Shown one piece after another: positions 16,051 to 22,905 of a stretch of 34,170 bases of DNA. Source of the stretch: a virus. Its lineage: Duplodnaviria; Heunggongvirae; Uroviricota; Caudoviricetes. Both the position numbers and the translations under genes were made by a program. Location of the stretch: IMG/VR virus record IMGVR_UViG_2706796290_000001, positions 1 through 34,170 of that record; one strand, 5' to 3'. The first letter of the stretch is position 1. Each line of letters opens with the position of its first letter. Under the pieces are notes generated by a model. The model worked only from the letters and a program-made list of their open reading frames with translations, made no database searches and was not told the origin of the DNA.

Positions 16051-16136
16051 GGGTGATGTTGGGGTGTTGGTCAACCCCATCAGACTGTAAATCTGACGTG
16101 AAAGCTGTCTAGGTTCGAATCCTAGATCACCCACCA
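16051..16136 (+). tRNA. tRNA-Tyr(GTA)
   Basis: GGGTGAT/ATCACCC acceptor, TCAGA/TCTGA anticodon stem, variable arm, CCA. Confidence 0.93.
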
Positions 16137-16139
16137 AAT

Positions 16140-16214
16140 AGTACCTTAGTTCAGGGGTAGAACGCAGAACTGATAATTCTGAGGTCGATGGTTCGAAACC
16201 ATCAGGTACTACCA
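16140..16214 (+). tRNA. tRNA-Ile(GAT)
   Basis: Canonical cloverleaf, CCA. Confidence 0.95.
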
Positions 16215-16243
16215 ATTTAAAAGTTTTTAAAAGTTTATTCAGG

Positions 16244-16315
16244 TCTAGTGTAGCACAACGGTAGTGCAGCAGACTGTTAATCTGTTGGTTGTTGGTTCGA
16301 ATCCAGCCTCTAGAG
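16244..16315 (+). tRNA. tRNA-Asn(GTT), CCA not encoded (CCT)
   Basis: Cloverleaf with G73; U6xU67 mismatch. Confidence 0.88.
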
Positions 16316-16317
16316 CC

Positions 16318-17028
16318 TGAGTAAATTAAGAATTACCCTTCGGGGTATGGGTCGTGTATAACCCTTAGATAAACTGCAAAACAGTATAAAGTCGTAACGG
16401 CAGTTATGGCGCAGAGTAAAAATCTGTCAAGTACACACTCAAGGTATCATACTTATGTGGCGTAGAGCCAATCGGTGTAAACCATTTAAGTATGGGGGTG
16501 TAATGCTCCTGAGTCGATAGGCAATAAGAGAACTTGAAGGTATCTAGCGAAGTTGATTGTCAAGTCAAAACGCTGTTTACCATTGTGAGAGGTATATAGA
16601 GTTTAACAGGTGGTGCTGAATCTCGTAGTCCTAAACCAAGTGGACAATATATGCTTGAAACATCGTGCATGGTAAAGCACATTAGGTAGTGTGGTATTGA
16701 TGGGTTCAAAAGATCTGTTAGCCACAGAGAAACCACTATCTATGCAATACAAATTTCATTTTAGGAAAAAATTAAATTCAAAAGTGTTTCTCACGTTGGC
16801 ATGAAAGGTGCTTACATAGTAATGGGTTGTCCATTGCACATTTAACCTGAAAGGTTATTTGTATTTTCATGAAAGGATTATGTTTGGTAGGCATACTAGC
16901 ATAGTTTGAGTATTGGGAGAGTAGTTCCAACGTCTAAGAGTGGTTAGCTATACTGACCAGCACTGATCACTACTATATAAAGTATAGTGGATAATGAGGG
17001 AAAAGATAATCCTCTCAAGGTGGTCATT
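16318..17028 (+). ncRNA. large (~700 nt) structured non-coding RNA, GOLLD/ROOL-like candidate
   Basis: No ORF; at least 15 hairpins or long-range stems visible by eye; sits between tRNA-Asn and tRNA-Asp; family not confirmed. Confidence 0.7.
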
Positions 17029-17057
17029 TAAACGTGTAATCTCAGCGTTTTACTTGT

Positions 17058-17133
17058 GGCTCTGTAGCATAGTGGATTATGCGCCTCCCTGTCTAGGAGA
17101 AAAACGCCAGTTCGAGTCTGGTCAGAGTCGCCA
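17058..17133 (+). tRNA. tRNA-Asp(GTC)
   Basis: Cloverleaf, G73, CCA; unusual U37. Confidence 0.92.
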
Positions 17134-17137
17134 GTAT

Positions 17138-17212
17138 TGTCGTATAGTGTAATGGTTAGCACAGAAGACTTTGACTCTTCTAGTTTAGGTTCGAGTCCTA
17201 ATTCGACTACCA
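17138..17212 (+). tRNA. tRNA-Gln(TTG)
   Basis: Cloverleaf, CCA; U1xU72 and U6xU67 mismatches; A73. Confidence 0.88.
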
Positions 17213-17215
17213 AAT

Positions 17216-17291
17216 GGGTCACTAGCACAATGGTAGTGCAGTTGCTTTGCAAGCATCAGGTTAAGGGTTCGAGTCCCTTGTGTATCCACCA
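17216..17291 (+). tRNA. tRNA-Ala(TGC)
   Basis: G3.U70 identity pair; one bulged U in the 3' acceptor strand; CCA. Confidence 0.87.
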
Positions 17292-17293
17292 AT

Positions 17294-17368
17294 ATTCCAT
17301 TCGACTAGCGGTTAGGTCGCTTCCCTTTCAAGGAAGTAGCACGAGTTCGAATCTCGTATGGAATACCA
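17294..17368 (+). tRNA. tRNA-Glu(TTC)
   Basis: Canonical cloverleaf, CCA. Confidence 0.95.
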
Positions 17369-17370
17369 AT

Positions 17371-17447
17371 AGGACGTTAGCTCAGTTGGTTAGAGCAAGA
17401 GCCTTTTAAGTTCGAGGTCATAGGTTCAAATCCTATACGTCCTACCA
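17371..17447 (+). tRNA. tRNA-Lys(TTT)
   Basis: Cloverleaf, CCA; C31-G39 pair. Confidence 0.95.
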
Positions 17448-17452
17448 ACAAT

Positions 17453-17527
17453 GGTGACTTTGGTGTAATGGTTTGCATCACTCCCTGTGAAGGAGAAGGT
17501 CAGGGTTCAAATCCCGAAGTCACACCA
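17453..17527 (+). tRNA. tRNA-His(GTG)
   Basis: Encoded G-1, A73, bulged T-stem, CCA. Confidence 0.87.
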
Positions 17528-17540
17528 AGAATTTTAAGAA

Positions 17541-17674
17541 TTTCAAACGAGTAGAGGTACAGTCCTGAAAGTTTGAAAGTGGGGCGACACCTGCCTGAAG
17601 TAGTAGCTAATAATGGCCTGTTAGTGAATCTAAGTGGTGTGACTTAACTGACTTGGAGAGAAAGGTCGGGGCAG
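17541..17674 (+). ncRNA. structured inter-tRNA RNA (hairpin domain plus four-way junction)
   Basis: TTTCAAAC/GTTTGAAA stem; CTGCCT/GGGCAG stem enclosing three hairpins. Confidence 0.45.
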
Positions 17675-17675
17675 A

Positions 17676-17750
17676 GCACAAGTAGCTGAGATGGATTAGC
17701 GCTACCCTGAAGAGGTTGAGAGGTTGGATCGTTACCAACATTGTGCACCA
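17676..17750 (+). tRNA. tRNA-Phe(GAA)
   Basis: Cloverleaf, CCA; T-loop ATCGTTA and G37 are non-canonical. Confidence 0.85.
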
Positions 17751-17778
17751 AATTTTTAAAAGAAGAATTATTTTAGGA

Positions 17779-17854
17779 TTACCATAACCTAAAGGCTCGA
17801 AGGGGCGGTCTGCAACATCGTTGTTGGTGAGTTGAAGTCTCACATGGTAATCCA
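17779..17854 (+). tRNA. tRNA-Cys(GCA)
   Basis: U73 identity base, CCA; T-loop TTGAAGT. Confidence 0.87.
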
Positions 17855-17867
17855 AAGTGATTTTTAT

Positions 17868-17955
17868 AGAGGTTAAACCAGATAGGTTCTGGGACACCCT
17901 GCTAAGGTGATCGTGTTAGAAATAGCATTCGGATCGAGACCGATGGCCTCTGCCA
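17868..17955 (+). tRNA. tRNA-Ser(GCT)
   Basis: Long variable arm with GAAA loop, G73, CCA; T-loop ATCGAGA. Confidence 0.88.
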
Positions 17956-17957
17956 AA

Positions 17958-18225
17958 TTTGTTGTGCGCTCCACAGGTTGATCCTGTTACGGTTATCCTC
18001 AAGACCAGACCGCAACAAAGCAACATCAATGGCTTGTCTAAAGTAACGCTGTTGATGGGGCAAATGCAGACACCGATTCGCCTCTGACCTAGTTAAGCAC
18101 ACTAATCGGTTTTTTCTTAGGGCTATTGGACAGGTAATTACCCCTCCTTTAGTTACGACAAGATATCTTCGTGGCTCGCTACCTTGAAGGCATCCCAGTT
18201 AGGGTTCTGGTTAAAAACTCACTAC
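17958..18225 (+). ncRNA. structured ORF-less inter-tRNA segment
   Basis: Three-way junction 17958-18019, 10-bp hairpin 18024-18057, terminator-like stem 18072-18116. Confidence 0.4.
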
Positions 18226-18301
18226 AGTCCCTTAGCTCAATCGGGAGAGCAACACTCTTACAAGGTGAAGGTAGTAGGTTCGAAACCTACAGGGACTACC
18301 A
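18226..18301 (+). tRNA. tRNA-Val(TAC)
   Basis: Canonical cloverleaf, CCA. Confidence 0.95.
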
Positions 18302-18302
18302 A

Positions 18303-18391
18303 GGTGGGTAGCGTCAAGGTGACAAAGCGGGCTTGAACCCCGTGCCAATTGTGATGAGCAGTTGAGAGTTCGATTCTTTTACCCATCGCCA
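18303..18391 (+). tRNA. tRNA-Ser(TGA) with 8/4 acceptor/T-stem fold
   Basis: GGTGGGTA/TACCCATC 8 bp, AGAG/CTTT 4 bp, 7-bp variable arm, G73, CCA. Confidence 0.82.
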
Positions 18392-18392
18392 A

Positions 18393-18466
18393 GCGTTTAT
18401 AGTGTAGTGGTAACACCCTGTACTTCCAATTCAGTATCTTCGGTTCGAATCCGAATAGACGCTCCA
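18393..18466 (+). tRNA. tRNA-Gly(TCC)
   Basis: Cloverleaf, U73, CCA. Confidence 0.95.
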
Positions 18467-18478
18467 GATTATGTTTAT

Positions 18479-18601
18479 GGACACTTCCTAAGGTTCTTTC
18501 TACAGGTTCGAAACTGTTTTAAGAATTGCTGGTGCTAGGTTTAGCGTCAAGAATCATTCGAAGGGTTCTTGGGGTGGTGAGTTCGATTCTCACAGTGTTC
18601 C
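18479..18601 (+). ncRNA. tRNA-like RNA (acceptor stem and T-arm intact; D and anticodon arms replaced by three hairpins; no CCA)
   Basis: GGACACT/AGTGTTC stem; GTGAG-TTCGATT-CTCAC T-arm; 123 nt. Confidence 0.6.
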
Positions 18602-18619
18602 CCCTATTTTAAAGTTTAT

Positions 18620-18696
18620 CTCTGTGTAGCTCAGTTTGGTAGAGCACTCGCTTTGGGAGTGAGGGGTCGTAAGTTCAATTCTTACTACAGAGACCA
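18620..18696 (+). tRNA. tRNA-Pro(TGG)
   Basis: C1-G72, A73, CCA. Confidence 0.95.
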
Positions 18697-18698
18697 GT

Positions 18699-18776
18699 TA
18701 TGAAGTGTTTGTACAGCTATCAGCTCACCGTTTAAAGGATACGGACAAGTCGGCTCGACTAAAGACTCACTTCATA
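18699..18776 (+). ncRNA. 78-nt multibranch inter-tRNA RNA
   Basis: TATGAAGTG/CACTTCATA 9-bp closing stem with internal hairpins. Confidence 0.45.
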
Positions 18777-18783
18777 TGTTTTT

Positions 18784-18860
18784 GGGTAGTTGAAGGGAAT
18801 GGCATACCTTTCACGCTTAGAACGTGAAGTTTCTGAGTTCGAGTCTCAGACTACCTACCA
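18784..18860 (+). tRNA. tRNA-Leu(TAG), short variable loop
   Basis: Cloverleaf, A73, CCA; 5-nt variable loop. Confidence 0.87.
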
Positions 18861-18866
18861 AATTCT

Positions 18867-18942
18867 GGGGATATAGCCCAACGGCAGAGGCAAGAGGTTT
18901 AAACCCTCTCAAGTTTCAGTTCGAATCTGAATATCCCTACCA
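18867..18942 (+). tRNA. tRNA-Leu(TAA), short variable loop
   Basis: Cloverleaf, A73, CCA; 5-nt variable loop. Confidence 0.9.
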
Positions 18943-18957
18943 GTTTAGGAGTGCTAC

Positions 18958-19239
18958 ATGGAAGTATTACTTGTTAGTGATTGTAGATGCCAAGAGCGTT
19001 ATGACTTTGCAGATATTGTAAAGGATGCTCAAGAACAAGGTATCAAAATTAAGTACACATTAGTTCCTAAGAAGATATCCTATGAAGATAGAACTTACAC
19101 ATTTGTTAATGTTGAAGATCTCACTAAGGATAAAAGTTGTATTGTTGGTAAGAAGTTTGATGATGTCTATTTGACACCAGAAGCTAAAGATGCTATACCT
19201 TTAGGGTTGCTATCATTTATACTTACAAGAATACGTTAA
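18958..19239 (+). CDS. hypothetical protein inside the tRNA array, 93 aa
   Basis: TAGGAG SD; fills the gap between tRNA-Leu and the Arg-like RNA. Confidence 0.72.
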   Translation: MEVLLVSDCRCQERYDFADIVKDAQEQGIKIKYTLVPKKISYEDRTYTFVNVEDLTKDKSCIVGKKFDDVYLTPEAKDAIPLGLLSFILTRIR

Positions 19240-19246
19240 GTTTTAA

Positions 19247-19334
19247 GTCCCTACACCCTCCAAGAGCCTTCTAAGCTCTCGACATTAAATAGGGGGAAGG
19301 TAGTCAGAGTGTTCGATTCACTGTGGGGACTCCA
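19247..19334 (+). tRNA. atypical tRNA-Arg(TCT) lacking a D-arm
   Basis: 7-bp acceptor, AGAGC-CTTCTAA-GCTCT arm, T-arm TTCGATT, CCA; only a 9-nt linker where the D-arm should be. Confidence 0.65.
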
Positions 19335-19335
19335 A

Positions 19336-19411
19336 GCCGAATTAGCTCAGTTGGTAGAGCAGCGCACTTGTAATGCGAAGGTCGTAGACTCGGATTCTAC
19401 ATTCGGCACCA
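19336..19411 (+). tRNA. tRNA-Thr(TGT)
   Basis: Cloverleaf, CCA; T-loop CTCGGAT. Confidence 0.9.
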
Positions 19412-19417
19412 TATTTA

Positions 19418-19507
19418 GGTCGTGTAGCTTAAAGAAAGCAAGAGGATTTATAAACCTTTTCACTAGATAAGTGCTTGATGTGGGGGCAGTACCCACCACG
19501 ACTACCA
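19418..19507 (+). tRNA. atypical tRNA with TAT anticodon (nominally Ile) and long variable arm
   Basis: 7-bp acceptor, A73, CCA; D-loop AAAGA lacks GG; T-loop GGCAGTA; CACT/AGTG variable arm. Confidence 0.65.
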
Positions 19508-19509
19508 AT

Positions 19510-19579
19510 AAGTCCCCCTCTGGGAGGGAAGAGGTCTCCAAAACCACTTAGCTGTGTTCGATTCACAGGGGATTTGCCA
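19510..19579 (+). tRNA. compact tRNA-Trp(CCA)
   Basis: 70 nt; G73, CCA; 3-nt D-loop, extended anticodon stem, 2-nt variable loop. Confidence 0.72.
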
Positions 19580-19729
19580 AATTAGATTAAGATGTTGGTG
19601 CGTGACAACCTTAATCGGCATGATTTTAGTTTATGTCGATGTGATAAACATGGCTAGATAGATATGTCGATAAAAACTAGAAATTAAAACACGTAGTATT
19701 GAAATGTTAAAAATAATTAAACAAAACAC

Positions 19730-19761
19730 TTGACAAATAGATTTTTAGTGTTATATATAAT
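19730..19761 (+). promoter_or_regulatory. promoter upstream of tRNA-CAT/thioredoxin
   Basis: TTGACA at 19730 followed after 16 nt by TGn-TATATATAAT; the exact -10 register is ambiguous. Confidence 0.6.
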
Positions 19762-19783
19762 ATATAAGCAATTAAGTTTTCAT

Positions 19784-19858
19784 AGCGAGGTAGTGTAACG
19801 GTTTGCACAGGGGACTCATAATCCTCTGGTTTGGGTTCGAATCCCAACTTCGCTTCCA
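19784..19858 (+). tRNA. tRNA with CAT anticodon (Met; Ile2 not excluded)
   Basis: Cloverleaf, CCA; A1-U72 and U73; lacks the three consecutive anticodon-stem G-C pairs of initiators. Confidence 0.88.
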
Positions 19859-20344: not shown

Positions 20345-20411
20345 TTAAGAGGTGGTGCTTACTTGTCCTAGGCATCACCCCTTAAGTTATCAACATAGAG
20401 GACAAGCTATG
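20345..20411 (+). promoter_or_regulatory. SD-sequestering RNA pseudoknot in the HNH leader
   Basis: 17-position stem 20345-61/20369-85 with one mismatch; loop CTTGTCC complementary to GGACAAG at 20400-06. Confidence 0.7.
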
Positions 20412-20903
20412 GAAGAAATTTGGAAGCCTGTTGAAGGTTTTGGTGGCTATGAAGTTAGTGATTTGGGTCGTGTACGTAAGGTTGACGGAACTATTGTTAA
20501 TCTATTCAACCATCCGCAAGGATACCTAAAAGTAGCCCTTAAGGTTGCTGGCCAAAAGGTTAGTAAGAAGTACGTGCATAGGCTTGTAGCTGCTGCATTT
20601 ATACCTAACCCAGACAACCTTCCTTATGTAAATCATAAGAATGGCAAGCAGTGGTGTAATGAGGTTGATAACCTTGAGTGGATATCCTCTAAAGATAACC
20701 ATACACATGCTCGTGAGACTGGTCTTATTGACTATTACAAGTCACACCGAGTAGTTTCTGTCGAGGATGTACGATACATACGTAAGCATATAAAACCTTA
20801 CGATAAAGAATTCGGTAATGGTGCTATTGCAAAGCGATTGGGCTTAAGCCGAGACCAAGTTACTGACATTGCCCTGTACCGGAATTACAAAGACGTGATA
20901 TAG
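20409..20903 (+). CDS. free-standing NUMOD4-HNH homing endonuclease (I-HmuI-like), 164 aa
   Basis: EEIWKPV...YEVSDLGRVR (NUMOD4); VHRLVAAAF...VNHKNG...NLEW (HNH); ATG after GAGGA. Confidence 0.9.
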   Translation: MEEIWKPVEGFGGYEVSDLGRVRKVDGTIVNLFNHPQGYLKVALKVAGQKVSKKYVHRLVAAAFIPNPDNLPYVNHKNGKQWCNEVDNLEWISSKDNHTHARETGLIDYYKSHRVVSVEDVRYIRKHIKPYDKEFGNGAIAKRLGLSRDQVTDIALYRNYKDVI

Positions 20904-20912
20904 GAGGTATTA

Positions 20913-22905
20913 ATGTCGAATATATTTGCACCGTGTAGTCCAGTGCAAGCAAAGTTACTGCAAAGTGATGCAACAATTACAGTTTATGGTGGGTGAATAT
21001 AGGCTCCTTTAAGTAGTAATACTTATCGAATAACCTTGTGAAATGCTGGAAACCCCTTAGAGCCTTGAGTACCGAAGTGTAACAACCTTAAGGATTGGGC
21101 AATCAGCAGGGAAGCCTCTTATTAGAGGAACCCTCAACGACTATCGAAAGGGTAACGAACCGAGTAGAGTAGGGGCAAGTGTCCCGAAGTGCAAGGCACC
21201 TCAAGTAGGTGAAGATATAGTCTGGACTCATGGGAAACCTTGAGCATGCAATTGGCTAATGTGCTGTTGCATGGGTTGGCTCTAACGAAGCCTTCTTAAC
21301 ACAATCACTATGGGGTCTGCGAAAACCTATGGAGGTCTACTAAGACACCTTCAATATGTAAATAGTCCTCATTATGTTGGGTGAAAATACATGCCCCTTT
21401 AAGTGGTGACACTTATCGAATAACCCCTCTAATTGCTGGGAACCCTCTTTGAGGCAATCAGCAGCCAAGCCCAGCAGGGAAGGTTCAACGACTATTCCGA
21501 CAGGAAGTACACTCAAGTGAGTGGAAACGGGGGGCATCTCGCAGAGATGATGATATAGTCTGATCTACATGGTGACATGTAGCAAGGTTAAAACCTTGGA
21601 GTTAGCTTAACGAGCTAACACTAACAAAATGATGTTATCCGTAAAAATGAAGTAGTTCTGAGGGCTGGTGGTGGTGCTTTTGAAGAAGCCAAAGCTTTAT
21701 ACAAGGCATTTGAGCCGAGAGTTAAAATCACAGAGAAACCTATGAGGTTTCGCTTTCCTTCTGGTGCTGTAATTAACTTTGCAGGTGCTGAAGATGAGAA
21801 AGCTATGGAAAAATATCGTGGTCTTAACTTGACTGGCGTGATGGTCGATGAAGGTACACAGTTATCAGAAAGACAAATTTGGTTCTTGATCTCTCGTTTG
21901 CGTAACGGTAAAGATCCAAACATTATGCCAAATATATGGATTACATGTAACCCTGACCCTGATAGTTATTTGTTTGAATGGGTTAAGTGGTATTTATATC
22001 CTGTAGGGCATCCTCTTGCTGGAAGACCTGATAAAGATAAGAATGGATTAAAAAGATATTTCGTATCGACTCCAGAAGGTTTAGTTTGGAGTGATAATGA
22101 ACAGGAATTACTTGATAAGTATCCGCATTTATTTACAAAAGGGACTAGACCACTAAGCTTTAGATTTATTGGTGGTACAGTTTACGATAACCCACCTCTT
22201 CTTAAGAACTCACCTCAATATCTTCAAAACCTACTCCAACAGAAAGACCGAGTAGTGCGAGAACGTGAGTTGTACGGCAACTGGTTTGCACGTAGGGAAG
22301 ATTCAAGTTACTTCAACAGGTCTTGGTGTGAGATAGTTGATAAGCCTCCTGAAAGGGTCCGTAAAAGGGTTCGTTCTTGGGACTTGGCTTTCACATTACC
22401 AACTGAGACAAACCCAAACCCCGATTATACCTGTGGTGTTCGTCTGAGTAAAGATGATGAAGGTACAATCTATGTTGAAGACATGGTTCTTGAAAGGGTT
22501 GGTTCTGGGCAAATTATTGAGTTAATTGCAAAGACTGGTCTAGAAGATGCTGAGATGTTTGGTGTTGTTGAAACAACAATCCCTCAAGATGCTGGTGGTA
22601 TGGCTAAATTTGCAGCTAGGGATATGGCCTCTAAGCTAAGAGAGCATGGTGTATCTCCTATTGTAGTTCCTGTAGGTAATAAAGGCAAGCTCGTTCGTTT
22701 TATTCCATTCTCAGGTGCAGCACAAAATAAACATGTGAAGATTGTACGTGGTGATTGGAATGCAGCCTTCTTTCATCAGTTAGAAGCTTTTGGAAGTGGA
22801 AATAAGGCTGTGCACGATGATGCTGTCGATGCTGTTGCTGATGCTTATAAAAGAGTAGCAGAAAATAGAACGATTGACTATGCCATCGACTTAGCAGTTT
22901 TATAA
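20913..22905 (+). CDS. terL: terminase large subunit, join(20913..20994,21308..21382,21632..22905), 476 aa after splicing
   Basis: Splicing restores Walker A VYGGSMGSAKT; Walker B VMVDEG, TCNPD coupling motif, RuvC-like RSWDLA and HDDAVDA. Confidence 0.93.
20995..21307 (+). mobile_element. group I intron 1 (IA2-like, ORF-less, 313 nt, terminal A)
   Basis: P AAATGCTGGAAA 21041, Q AATCAGCAGG 21101, R TCAACGACTA 21134, S AAGATATAGTCT 21212; U.G at the 5' splice site. Confidence 0.92.
21383..21631 (+). mobile_element. group I intron 2 (IA2-like, ORF-less, 249 nt, terminal G)
   Basis: P AATTGCTGGGAA 21431, Q AATCAGCAG 21456, R TCAACGACTA 21485, S ATGATATAGTCT 21550; omega-G 21631; P10 UACAU region pairs with exon AUGU. 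Confidence 0.94.

What the first reader, a model, noticed from the sequence alone, without database searches (positions are those of the whole stretch)
20995..21307. Group I intron in terL that ends in A, not the near-universal omega-G
Seen: the intron has a canonical IA2-like core with an intact P7 G-binding G-C pair (GACUA/UAGUC). Three independent constraints put the 3' splice site after A21307. (1) Frame: only T20994+CT(21308-09) gives TCT and restores Walker A GG-S-M-GSAKT; the nearest Gs (21287, 21290) give a stop or the wrong frame. (2) P10: IGS UAUAG (20998-21002) pairs over 5 bp with exon start CUAUG. (3) P9.0: G21225-A21226 pairs with U21305-C21306, exactly as A21563-U21564 pairs with A21629-U21630 before omega-G in the sister intron. 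Established: omega-G binds the G-site for exon ligation, and omega-A introns are rare. Inference: an essential packaging gene depends on a non-canonical second splicing step, which may be slow, helper-dependent or regulatory.
Basis: partly seen in the sequence, partly recalled or inferred. Interest (0 to 1): 0.88.

Follow-up and report, generated by a model that had tools for sequence, protein, structure and literature searches.

The report
Phage terL intron ending in A
The only DNA-packaging (terL) gene of an Acinetobacter phage carries a self-splicing-type group I intron whose last base really is A rather than the almost universal G; this is rare but has precedents, and a natural sister version ending in G makes a ready test pair.

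Summary
Observation confirmed. Rfam calls two tandem group I introns in terL (20995-21307 and 21383-21631). Intronless terL genes of sister phages (Mithridates, AM24, Bestia, Ab15) and a third allele in metagenome contigs all encode ...YGGSMGSAKT.... This fixes the exon junction at T20994|C21308, so intron 1 ends in A21307. It is not a sequencing error: phage Herod, 12 metagenome loci and contigs from four further sequencing runs keep A.

Of 91 candidate 3' splice sites, only 21307 gives the homologous protein together with a 5/5 P10 and a 2/2 P9.0. Both pairings show compensatory changes among natural variants. The P7 G-binding G-C pair and the U.G pair at the 5' splice site never vary. One lineage (L021/L022) carries the same intron with omega-G.

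Splicing itself is inferred, not shown. Herod is an isolated phage with a single terL that contains this intron.

Novelty is modest. Omega-A introns are published for hexacoral mitochondria (ND5-717), and a Coxiella 23S intron lacks omega-G. Earlier unchecked notes of this scan also list introns lacking omega-G in other phages and bacteria.

A free-standing NUMOD4/HNH gene upstream always occurs together with intron 1, which suggests collaborative homing.

The parts
20409..20903 (+). Free-standing NUMOD4/HNH_3 homing-endonuclease gene (164 aa) that ends 9 nt before terL
   Evidence: Pfam NUMOD4 E 9.8e-10 and HNH_3 E 4.7e-07. Present in every locus that has intron 1 and absent from all loci without it.
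20913..20994 (+). terL exon 1 (27 codons plus the first base of the Ser codon)
   Evidence: Matches the N-terminus of the intronless Mithridates TerL.
20995..21307 (+). Group I intron 1, 313 nt, ORF-less, subgroup IA-like (P7.1/P7.2 present)
   Evidence: RF00028 at 78.8 bits. No + strand ORF of 30 aa or more. Boundaries fixed by intronless alleles.
20991..21006 (+). P1: GGGU (20991-20994) pairs with GCUC (21003-21006), with the U20994.G21003 wobble at the 5' splice site
   Evidence: Read from the sequence. T20994 and G21003 are invariant in 15 copies. 21005 U to C strengthens the pair.
20998..21002 (+). Internal guide segment UAUAG, which forms P10 with exon 2 bases 21308-21312 (CUAUG)
   Evidence: 5/5 pairs, unique among 91 candidate sites. 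Pair 21001-21309 covaries A-U to C-G.
21138..21143 (+). P7 5' strand, including G21139 of the guanosine-binding G-C pair
   Evidence: Invariant in all 15 copies and the same sequence as in intron 2.
21218..21224 (+). P7 3' strand (UAGUC, bulged U, G), including C21222
   Evidence: Invariant in all 15 copies.
21225..21226 (+). P9.0 5' strand (GA), pairing with U21305-C21306
   Evidence: Pair 21226-21305 covaries A-U to U-A in L017-L020. It sits in the same register as in intron 2.
21305..21306 (+). P9.0 3' strand (UC), immediately before omega
21307..21307 (+). Omega position: A (G only in loci L021/L022)
21308..21382 (+). terL exon 2, 75 nt, encoding the Walker A motif (S)MGSAKT
21383..21631 (+). 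Group I intron 2, a paralogue of intron 1 that ends in the canonical omega-G21631
   Evidence: RF00028 at 96.6 bits. Aligned with intron 1. Absent from Herod, L021 and L024.
21632..22905 (+). terL exon 3 (Terminase_6N/6C)
   Evidence: Pfam. 99.8-100% identical to TerL of the AM24-group phages.

Best explanation
Intron 1 (20995-21307) is a genuine ORF-less group I intron of subgroup IA in the single terL gene of an AM24/Herod-type Acinetobacter myophage, and its last nucleotide is A.

Shown: the boundaries, the core, the intact G-C guanosine pocket, and the P9.0 and P10 pairings that bracket A21307.

Inferred: step 1 proceeds normally, with exogenous G attacking after U20994. In step 2 the 3' splice site is placed in the active site mainly by P9.0 (2 bp) and a 5-bp P10, while omega-A sits only weakly in a pocket built for G. 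Exon ligation therefore still occurs at U20994|C21308 and restores the Walker A motif, probably less efficiently than in the omega-G allele.

The intron probably persists and spreads because it travels with the adjacent free-standing NUMOD4/HNH endonuclease (collaborative homing). Such drive can carry a sub-optimal splice site.
For: - Rfam score above threshold, with all core helices present.
- Three independent intronless allele types encode GGSMGSAKT: Mithridates-type GGA TCT ATG, L010-type GGC TCA ATG, and the protein P0001.
- Only 21307 gives this product together with P10 5/5 and P9.0 2/2.
- Compensatory changes occur in P10 (A-U to C-G) and P9.0 (A-U to U-A) within omega-A copies. P7 and the U.G pair are invariant.
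- A21307 is found in Herod, 12 loci and four further runs.
- The complete 98-kb genome and Herod each have a single terL.
- Exons are under purifying selection (dN/dS 0.10). Introns are 93-95% identical where exons are 78% identical.
- The HNH gene co-occurs with intron 1 without exception.
- Omega-A introns yield ligated exons in vivo in hexacorals (PMC6545197, PMC8146996).
Against: - There is no RNA evidence of the spliced junction.
- From my own recollection of the Tetrahymena and T4 literature, omega-G to A mutations strongly impair exon ligation, and nothing in the pocket has changed to compensate.
- L018/L020 tolerate a C/U mismatch in P10, so P10 is not strictly required to be perfect.
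- A at 21307 unchanged across copies only about 5% diverged is weak evidence of selection for A itself.
Confidence: 0.8

Rival explanations
1. The intron ends in A as described, but exon ligation needs a phage or host protein (a maturase-like helper or RNA chaperone/helicase). It would not be truly self-splicing.
For: - Some Bastillevirinae phage introns splice in vivo but not in vitro (PMC11878797).
- The pocket keeps G-C, so omega-A should bind poorly.
Against: - No candidate helper was identified.
- The title of Raghavan 2007 (seen) calls the Coxiella introns self-splicing although one lacks omega-G.
- The core and the peripheral helices look complete.
Confidence: 0.25
2. A21307 is a sequencing or assembly error, and the true base is G.
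For: One lineage (L021/L022) has G at this position.
Against: - A is found in GenBank phage Herod, the window's own record, 12 independent Logan/ENA contigs and four further runs from different studies, including copies 4-5% diverged.
- The G lineage differs at six other intron positions, so it is a separate haplotype.
Confidence: 0.01
3. Splicing uses a canonical G further downstream (G21313 or G21319), giving a TerL with a shortened P-loop.
For: Both sites are in frame and open.
Against: - The products GGWSAKT and GGSKT remove residues kept in every homolog.
- P10 is 0/5 or 1 contiguous pair, and P9.0 is at most 1/2.
- The covariation supports the 21307 register.
Confidence: 0.03
4. Intron 1 is not removed correctly. 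The phage makes do with an N-terminally truncated TerL started at ATG21310, or with exon-skipped products.
For: - GenBank annotates Herod terL from that ATG.
- Exon 2 is 75 nt, so joining exon 1 to exon 3 stays in frame.
- Exon skipping is reported for tandem phage introns (PMC11878797; PMC10136302).
Against: - No Shine-Dalgarno sequence precedes ATG21310.
- A truncated protein would lose the first Walker A glycines, and skipping would remove the whole motif.
- Exon 1 is conserved and is kept in frame with the junction in all lineages.
- Herod and L024 lack intron 2, so skipping cannot explain them.
Confidence: 0.04

Closest known systems
Coxiella burnetii 23S rRNA intron Cbu.L1917 (Raghavan et al. 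2007, J Bacteriol 189:6572)
   Same: A bacterial group I intron that lacks the canonical omega-G, lies in tandem with a second canonical intron across a short exon, and is described as self-splicing. Only the title was seen, in the reference lists of PMC11270868 and PMC3428280. That omega is A there is my recollection and an unchecked scan note.
   Different: It sits in rRNA rather than a protein-coding phage gene. The two Coxiella introns belong to different subgroups (IB2 and IA3 per PMC10136302), whereas here they are paralogues. No natural omega-G allele of that intron is known to me.
Hexacoral mitochondrial ND5-717 group I intron
   Same: It ends in omega-A, sits in an essential protein-coding gene, and still gives perfectly ligated exons in vivo (PMC6545197, PMC8146996).
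   Different: It is a giant organellar intron with genes inside P8. It is vertically inherited, sometimes back-spliced, and likely depends on host factors. The phage intron is 313 nt, ORF-less and horizontally mobile.
Intron 2 of the same gene (21383-21631), and the omega-G allele of intron 1 in loci L021/L022
   Same: Same P2, P4, J6/7-P7, J8/7 and P9.0 register. L021/L022 carry the same intron at the same site.
   Different: Both end in G. L021/L022 also have GAC instead of GGA in J7/9, so the P9.0 register used by the omega-A copies is not available to them.
Collaborative homing systems (cyanophage psbA intron with F-CphI; T3/T7-like phage DNA polymerase introns; reviewed in PMC3984707)
   Same: [quoted passage not shown]
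   Different: Cleavage of the intronless terL site by this HNH has not been shown. Two different HNH alleles (164-166 aa and 266 aa) occupy the same slot.

Membership tests
Group I intron (Rfam RF00028) | Conserved catalytic core (P3-P8) scoring above the curated threshold | tested here: met
   78.8 bits against a gathering score of 50, full-length model match.
Group I intron (Rfam RF00028) | U.G wobble pair at the 5' splice site in P1 | tested here: met
   U20994.G21003, invariant in 15 copies.
Group I intron (Rfam RF00028) | Guanosine-binding G-C pair in P7 | tested here: met
   G21139-C21222 within GACUA/UAGUC. It is invariant and identical to intron 2. That this is the binding pair rests on homology with Tetrahymena G264-C311, which I cite from memory.
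Group I intron (Rfam RF00028) | 3'-terminal guanosine (omega-G). This is near-universal, but accepted members lack it. | tested here: not met
   A21307 in 13 of 15 aligned copies, G only in L021/L022. It is still filed as a group I intron because ND5-717 and Cbu.L1917 are accepted members without omega-G.
Group I intron (Rfam RF00028) | P9.0 and P10 pairings that define the 3' splice site | tested here: met
   5/5 and 2/2 pairs, unique among 91 sites. Compensatory changes occur in both.
Group I intron (Rfam RF00028) | Guanosine-dependent self-splicing with exon ligation | not testable with these tools
   No spliced joint was seen in the contigs of four runs. The tool says contigs drop rare variants, so this is uninformative.
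Subgroup IA (reader: IA2-like) | Extra helices P7.1/P7.2 between P7 and P3 | tested here: met
   Two hairpins fold in 21144-21185, and pair 21173-21184 covaries G-C to A-U. IA2 was not separated from IA1 or IA3.
Natural omega-A group I introns (ND5-717, Cbu.L1917) | Ends in A yet produces correctly ligated exons | tested here: inconclusive
   The terminal A is shown. Ligation is inferred from the single terL in the isolated phage Herod.
Collaborative homing pair (free-standing HEG plus ORF-less intron) | Endonuclease gene adjacent to the intron-bearing gene and co-inherited with the intron | tested here: met
   The 164-166-aa HNH gene occurs with intron 1 in the window, Herod and 13 loci with readable 3' ends. 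It is absent from 4 intronless phages and from 3 loci that carry another HNH and no intron 1. Loci found through the HNH protein are biased towards having it.
Collaborative homing pair (free-standing HEG plus ORF-less intron) | Endonuclease cuts the intronless insertion site, and the intron confers immunity | not testable with these tools
   Needs a cleavage assay.

The most novel reading that the evidence does not exclude
Omega-A turns exon ligation into a tunable checkpoint for terminase production. The pocket still prefers G, so free GTP would compete with omega-A in step 2. Alternatively, N1-protonated A+ could mimic G's two hydrogen-bond donors, which would make ligation depend on pH. TerL output would then follow the nucleotide pool or the physiological state late in infection. 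The natural omega-G allele with its altered J7/9 would be the unregulated form.
Probability: 0.12. Interest if true: 0.75.

Novelty: new member of a known kind. Interest (0 to 1): 0.5.

Why it matters
Textbooks treat the terminal G as essential for the second step of group I splicing. This case offers a 313-nt ORF-less intron in an essential gene of an isolated phage (Herod). It has a paralogue ending in G 75 nt downstream, and natural alleles of the same intron ending in A or G. Together these form an unusually clean system for measuring how much omega-G contributes, and how far P9.0 and P10 can replace it.

It also corrects the annotation of this phage group: Herod's terL is annotated as truncated and its intron is not annotated. 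Finally, it adds a candidate collaborative-homing pair that targets the terminase P-loop.

Tried and rejected
- Read laying on four runs, two to three of them RNA libraries: no 20994-to-21308 joint. All the data are contigs, so this says nothing about whether splicing occurs.
- Exact 26-mer of P7-P9 in IMG/VR: only an unrelated intron in another gene (L006). In JGI metagenomes: nothing.
- Exact look-up of the window's own HNH protein: not on record. Relatives were reached through the search for homologous proteins instead.
- P0131 locus: no DNA available.
- Literature searches for 'omegaA' and 'terminal adenosine': nothing relevant. One search failed on syntax.
- Raghavan 2007 and Hicks 2011 are not held, so only titles and citing text could be used.
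- The count of structure pairs was not called, to avoid typing a 346-character structure string. The same pair counts were computed in a script.
- A TadA-type A-to-I edit of omega was considered and dropped. The context UCAC is not the UACG loop motif that, as I recall, TadA recognises.
- An alternative P9.0 register that includes U21223-A21307 was rejected, because the 21226/21305 covariation supports the original register.

Full report
**What is there.** The window comes from a complete 98-kb virus record. It is closely related to the Acinetobacter baumannii myophages AM24, Mithridates, Bestia, Ab15 and Herod. Rfam finds two group I introns in tandem: 20975-21244 at 78.8 bits and 21360-21582 at 96.6 bits, against a gathering score of 50. 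They interrupt the 5' end of terL, a Terminase_6N/6C gene. Neither intron holds a + strand ORF of 30 aa or more.

**Fixing the junction.** Four GenBank sister phages have an uninterrupted terL of 1431 nt. At the relevant place it reads GGT GGA TCT ATG GGT, and the protein is ...TVYGGSMGSAKTYGG.... A third allele type, in Logan contigs L010, L014 and L015, reads GGA GGC TCA ATG GGG and encodes the same peptide.
- In the window, exon 1 ends GGT GGG T (20994) and exon 2 begins CT ATG GGG (21308).
- Joining them gives a 1431-nt ORF whose first 80 residues are identical to Mithridates TerL.
- Sliding both boundaries by one base either way changes the conserved Ser to Thr or Cys and removes the U at the 5' splice site.
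- I listed every possible 3' splice site from 21240 to 21330. Only 21307 reproduces the homologous peptide.
- The only in-frame, open sites that follow a G are 21313 (GGWSAKT) and 21319 (GGSKT). Both cut residues out of the Walker A loop.

**RNA structure around the 3' splice site.**
- P1 is GGGU/GCUC, with the U20994.G21003 wobble.
- The guide bases directly 5' of G21003 (UAUAG, 20998-21002) pair 5/5 with CUAUG (21308-21312), forming P10.
- G21225-A21226 follow the P7 3' strand (UAGUC, bulged U, G) and pair with U21305-C21306, forming P9.0. Intron 2 uses the same register (A21563-U21564 with A21629-U21630, before G21631).
- Among the 91 candidate sites, only 21307 has P10 5/5 and P9.0 2/2.
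- P7 is GACUA/UAGUC. As I recall it, this is the same sequence as Tetrahymena P7 around the G264-C311 guanosine-binding pair.

**Natural variation.** Using the exon 3 product and relatives of the upstream HNH protein, I fetched 20 Logan and ENA loci. I aligned 15 copies of intron 1, of which 13 are distinct. They fall into five haplotypes.
- Omega is A in 13 rows: the window, Herod, L009, L011, L024, L017-L020 and L025-L028. L012 and L013, not in the alignment, also end in A.
- Omega is G only in L021 and L022, which are two runs that by their accession numbers look like one study.
- Three pairs change on both sides: P10 21001-21309 (A-U to C-G, with a C/U mismatch in L018 and L020), P9.0 21226-21305 (A-U to U-A), and P7.2 21173-21184 (G-C to A-U).
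- Both matched states of P10 and of P9.0 occur in omega-A copies. The pairings that place A21307 at the splice site therefore appear to have been maintained while omega was A.
- P7, J6/7, J8/7 and the U.G pair never vary, so there is no compensating change in the guanosine pocket.
- The omega-G haplotype has six further private changes. Two of them (21225 and 21226, GGA to GAC) abolish the P9.0 register of the omega-A copies. A shifted G21224-A21225 pairing would remain possible.
- Contigs of four further runs from four studies cover 21284-21314, two of them 4-5% diverged. None lists a change at 21307.

A sequencing error is therefore excluded, and omega is a real polymorphism in which A predominates.

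**Is the omega-A intron spliced?** This is inferred, not shown.
- The window's genome and Herod each have one terL.
- Herod is recorded as an isolate from sewage with an A. baumannii host strain. It carries intron 1 with omega-A but not intron 2. It therefore cannot rely on the 3' splice site of intron 2.
- Between the window lineage and the L017 lineage, terL exons are 78% identical, with dS about 1.2 and dN/dS 0.10. Intron 1 is 95.5% identical and intron 2 is 92.8%.
- So the gene is functional, and the introns have spread horizontally rather than diverging with their hosts.
- The RNA libraries I could lay are contigs only. They showed unspliced sequence and no exon 1-exon 2 joint, which is uninformative.

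**Mechanism (inference).** Step 1 should be ordinary, because the G-C pocket is intact. In step 2, I propose that P9.0 and the 5-bp P10 position the scissile phosphate while omega-A binds poorly. Exon ligation would then be correct but probably slower than in the omega-G allele.
- Speculative refinements are competition by free GTP and use of N1-protonated A+.
- Exon 2 is 75 nt and both introns have GGGU 5' exon ends. An in-frame exon 1-exon 3 skipped product lacking Walker A is therefore conceivable. Such skipping is reported for the terL introns of phage SIOphi, for Twort orf142 and for Coxiella (PMC11878797, PMC10136302).

**Why a sub-optimal allele could persist.** A NUMOD4/HNH_3 gene (20409-20903) ends 9 nt before terL.
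- Every locus with intron 1 has it.
- The four intronless phages have neither element.
- L010, L014 and L015 carry a different 266-aa HNH gene, no intron 1, and intron 2.
- This is the architecture of collaborative homing (PMC3984707). Cleavage has not been tested.

**Comparison with the literature.**
[quoted passage not shown] The paper itself is not held.
- I found no paper reporting introns in AM24-group phages.
- Earlier notes of this scan, which are unchecked, describe further omega-A or non-G introns in phage nrdD, capsid and tRNA-Met genes and in CPR 23S rRNA. The scan has therefore met this phenomenon before on other DNA.

**Verdict.** The functional gloss is untested. This is a new member of a rare but known kind. 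Its added value is the natural omega-A/omega-G allele pair, the canonical sibling intron next door, and the covariation support for P9.0 and P10.

Noticed in passing
L021:2078-2423 and L022:991-1336 (equivalent to window 20980-21325): The same intron at the same site, but with omega-G. It also has exon +2 G (TCG Ser codon) and GAC instead of GGA in J7/9. This gives a natural near-isogenic contrast with the omega-A haplotype of L025-L028.
   Followed up: partly
window 20409-20903; L010:181-981, L014, L015: Two unrelated-length NUMOD4/HNH alleles occupy the slot between the thioredoxin gene and terL. The 164-166-aa form always comes with intron 1. The 266-aa form comes with intron 2 only. Intronless phages have neither.
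   Followed up: partly
window 21308-21393, as seen in run X16: One metatranscriptome contig continues after 21314 with 13 other bases and then matches intron 2 from 21393. In that variant a second intron may start only about 8 nt after intron 1, leaving a micro-exon. The contig could not be retrieved.
   Followed up: no
window 16682-17048: A GOLLD RNA (Rfam RF02032, 217.6 bits) lies inside a cluster of at least 16 tRNA genes (16052-19855).
   Followed up: no
L002 (Herod, MW316732.1) 1011-1852: The GenBank terL CDS of Herod starts at the ATG inside exon 2. The intron and exon 1 are not annotated, so the deposited protein lacks its first 28 residues.
   Followed up: yes
window 20913-22905 compared with L017: Introns are 93-95% identical between lineages whose terL exons are only 78% identical (dS about 1.2). 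This fits recent horizontal spread of both introns.
   Followed up: yes
window 21389-21392 with 21632-21635: Intron 2's P10 is ACAU/AUGU in the window. Most other copies have ACAC (T21392C), which mismatches the first exon base. P10 is therefore imperfect in many copies of the canonical intron too.
   Followed up: partly
window 20994, 21382, 21632: Exon 2 is exactly 75 nt and both introns split a codon after its first base. Joining exon 1 to exon 3 would therefore stay in frame and delete the Walker A motif.
   Followed up: no
L006:1030-1265 (IMG/VR contig): An intron in another phage gene shares an identical 26-nt stretch of P7-P9, and its 3' tail is similar (…AACAAAACG). This hints that G is the ancestral omega of this intron family. 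Its splice sites were not verified.
   Followed up: no
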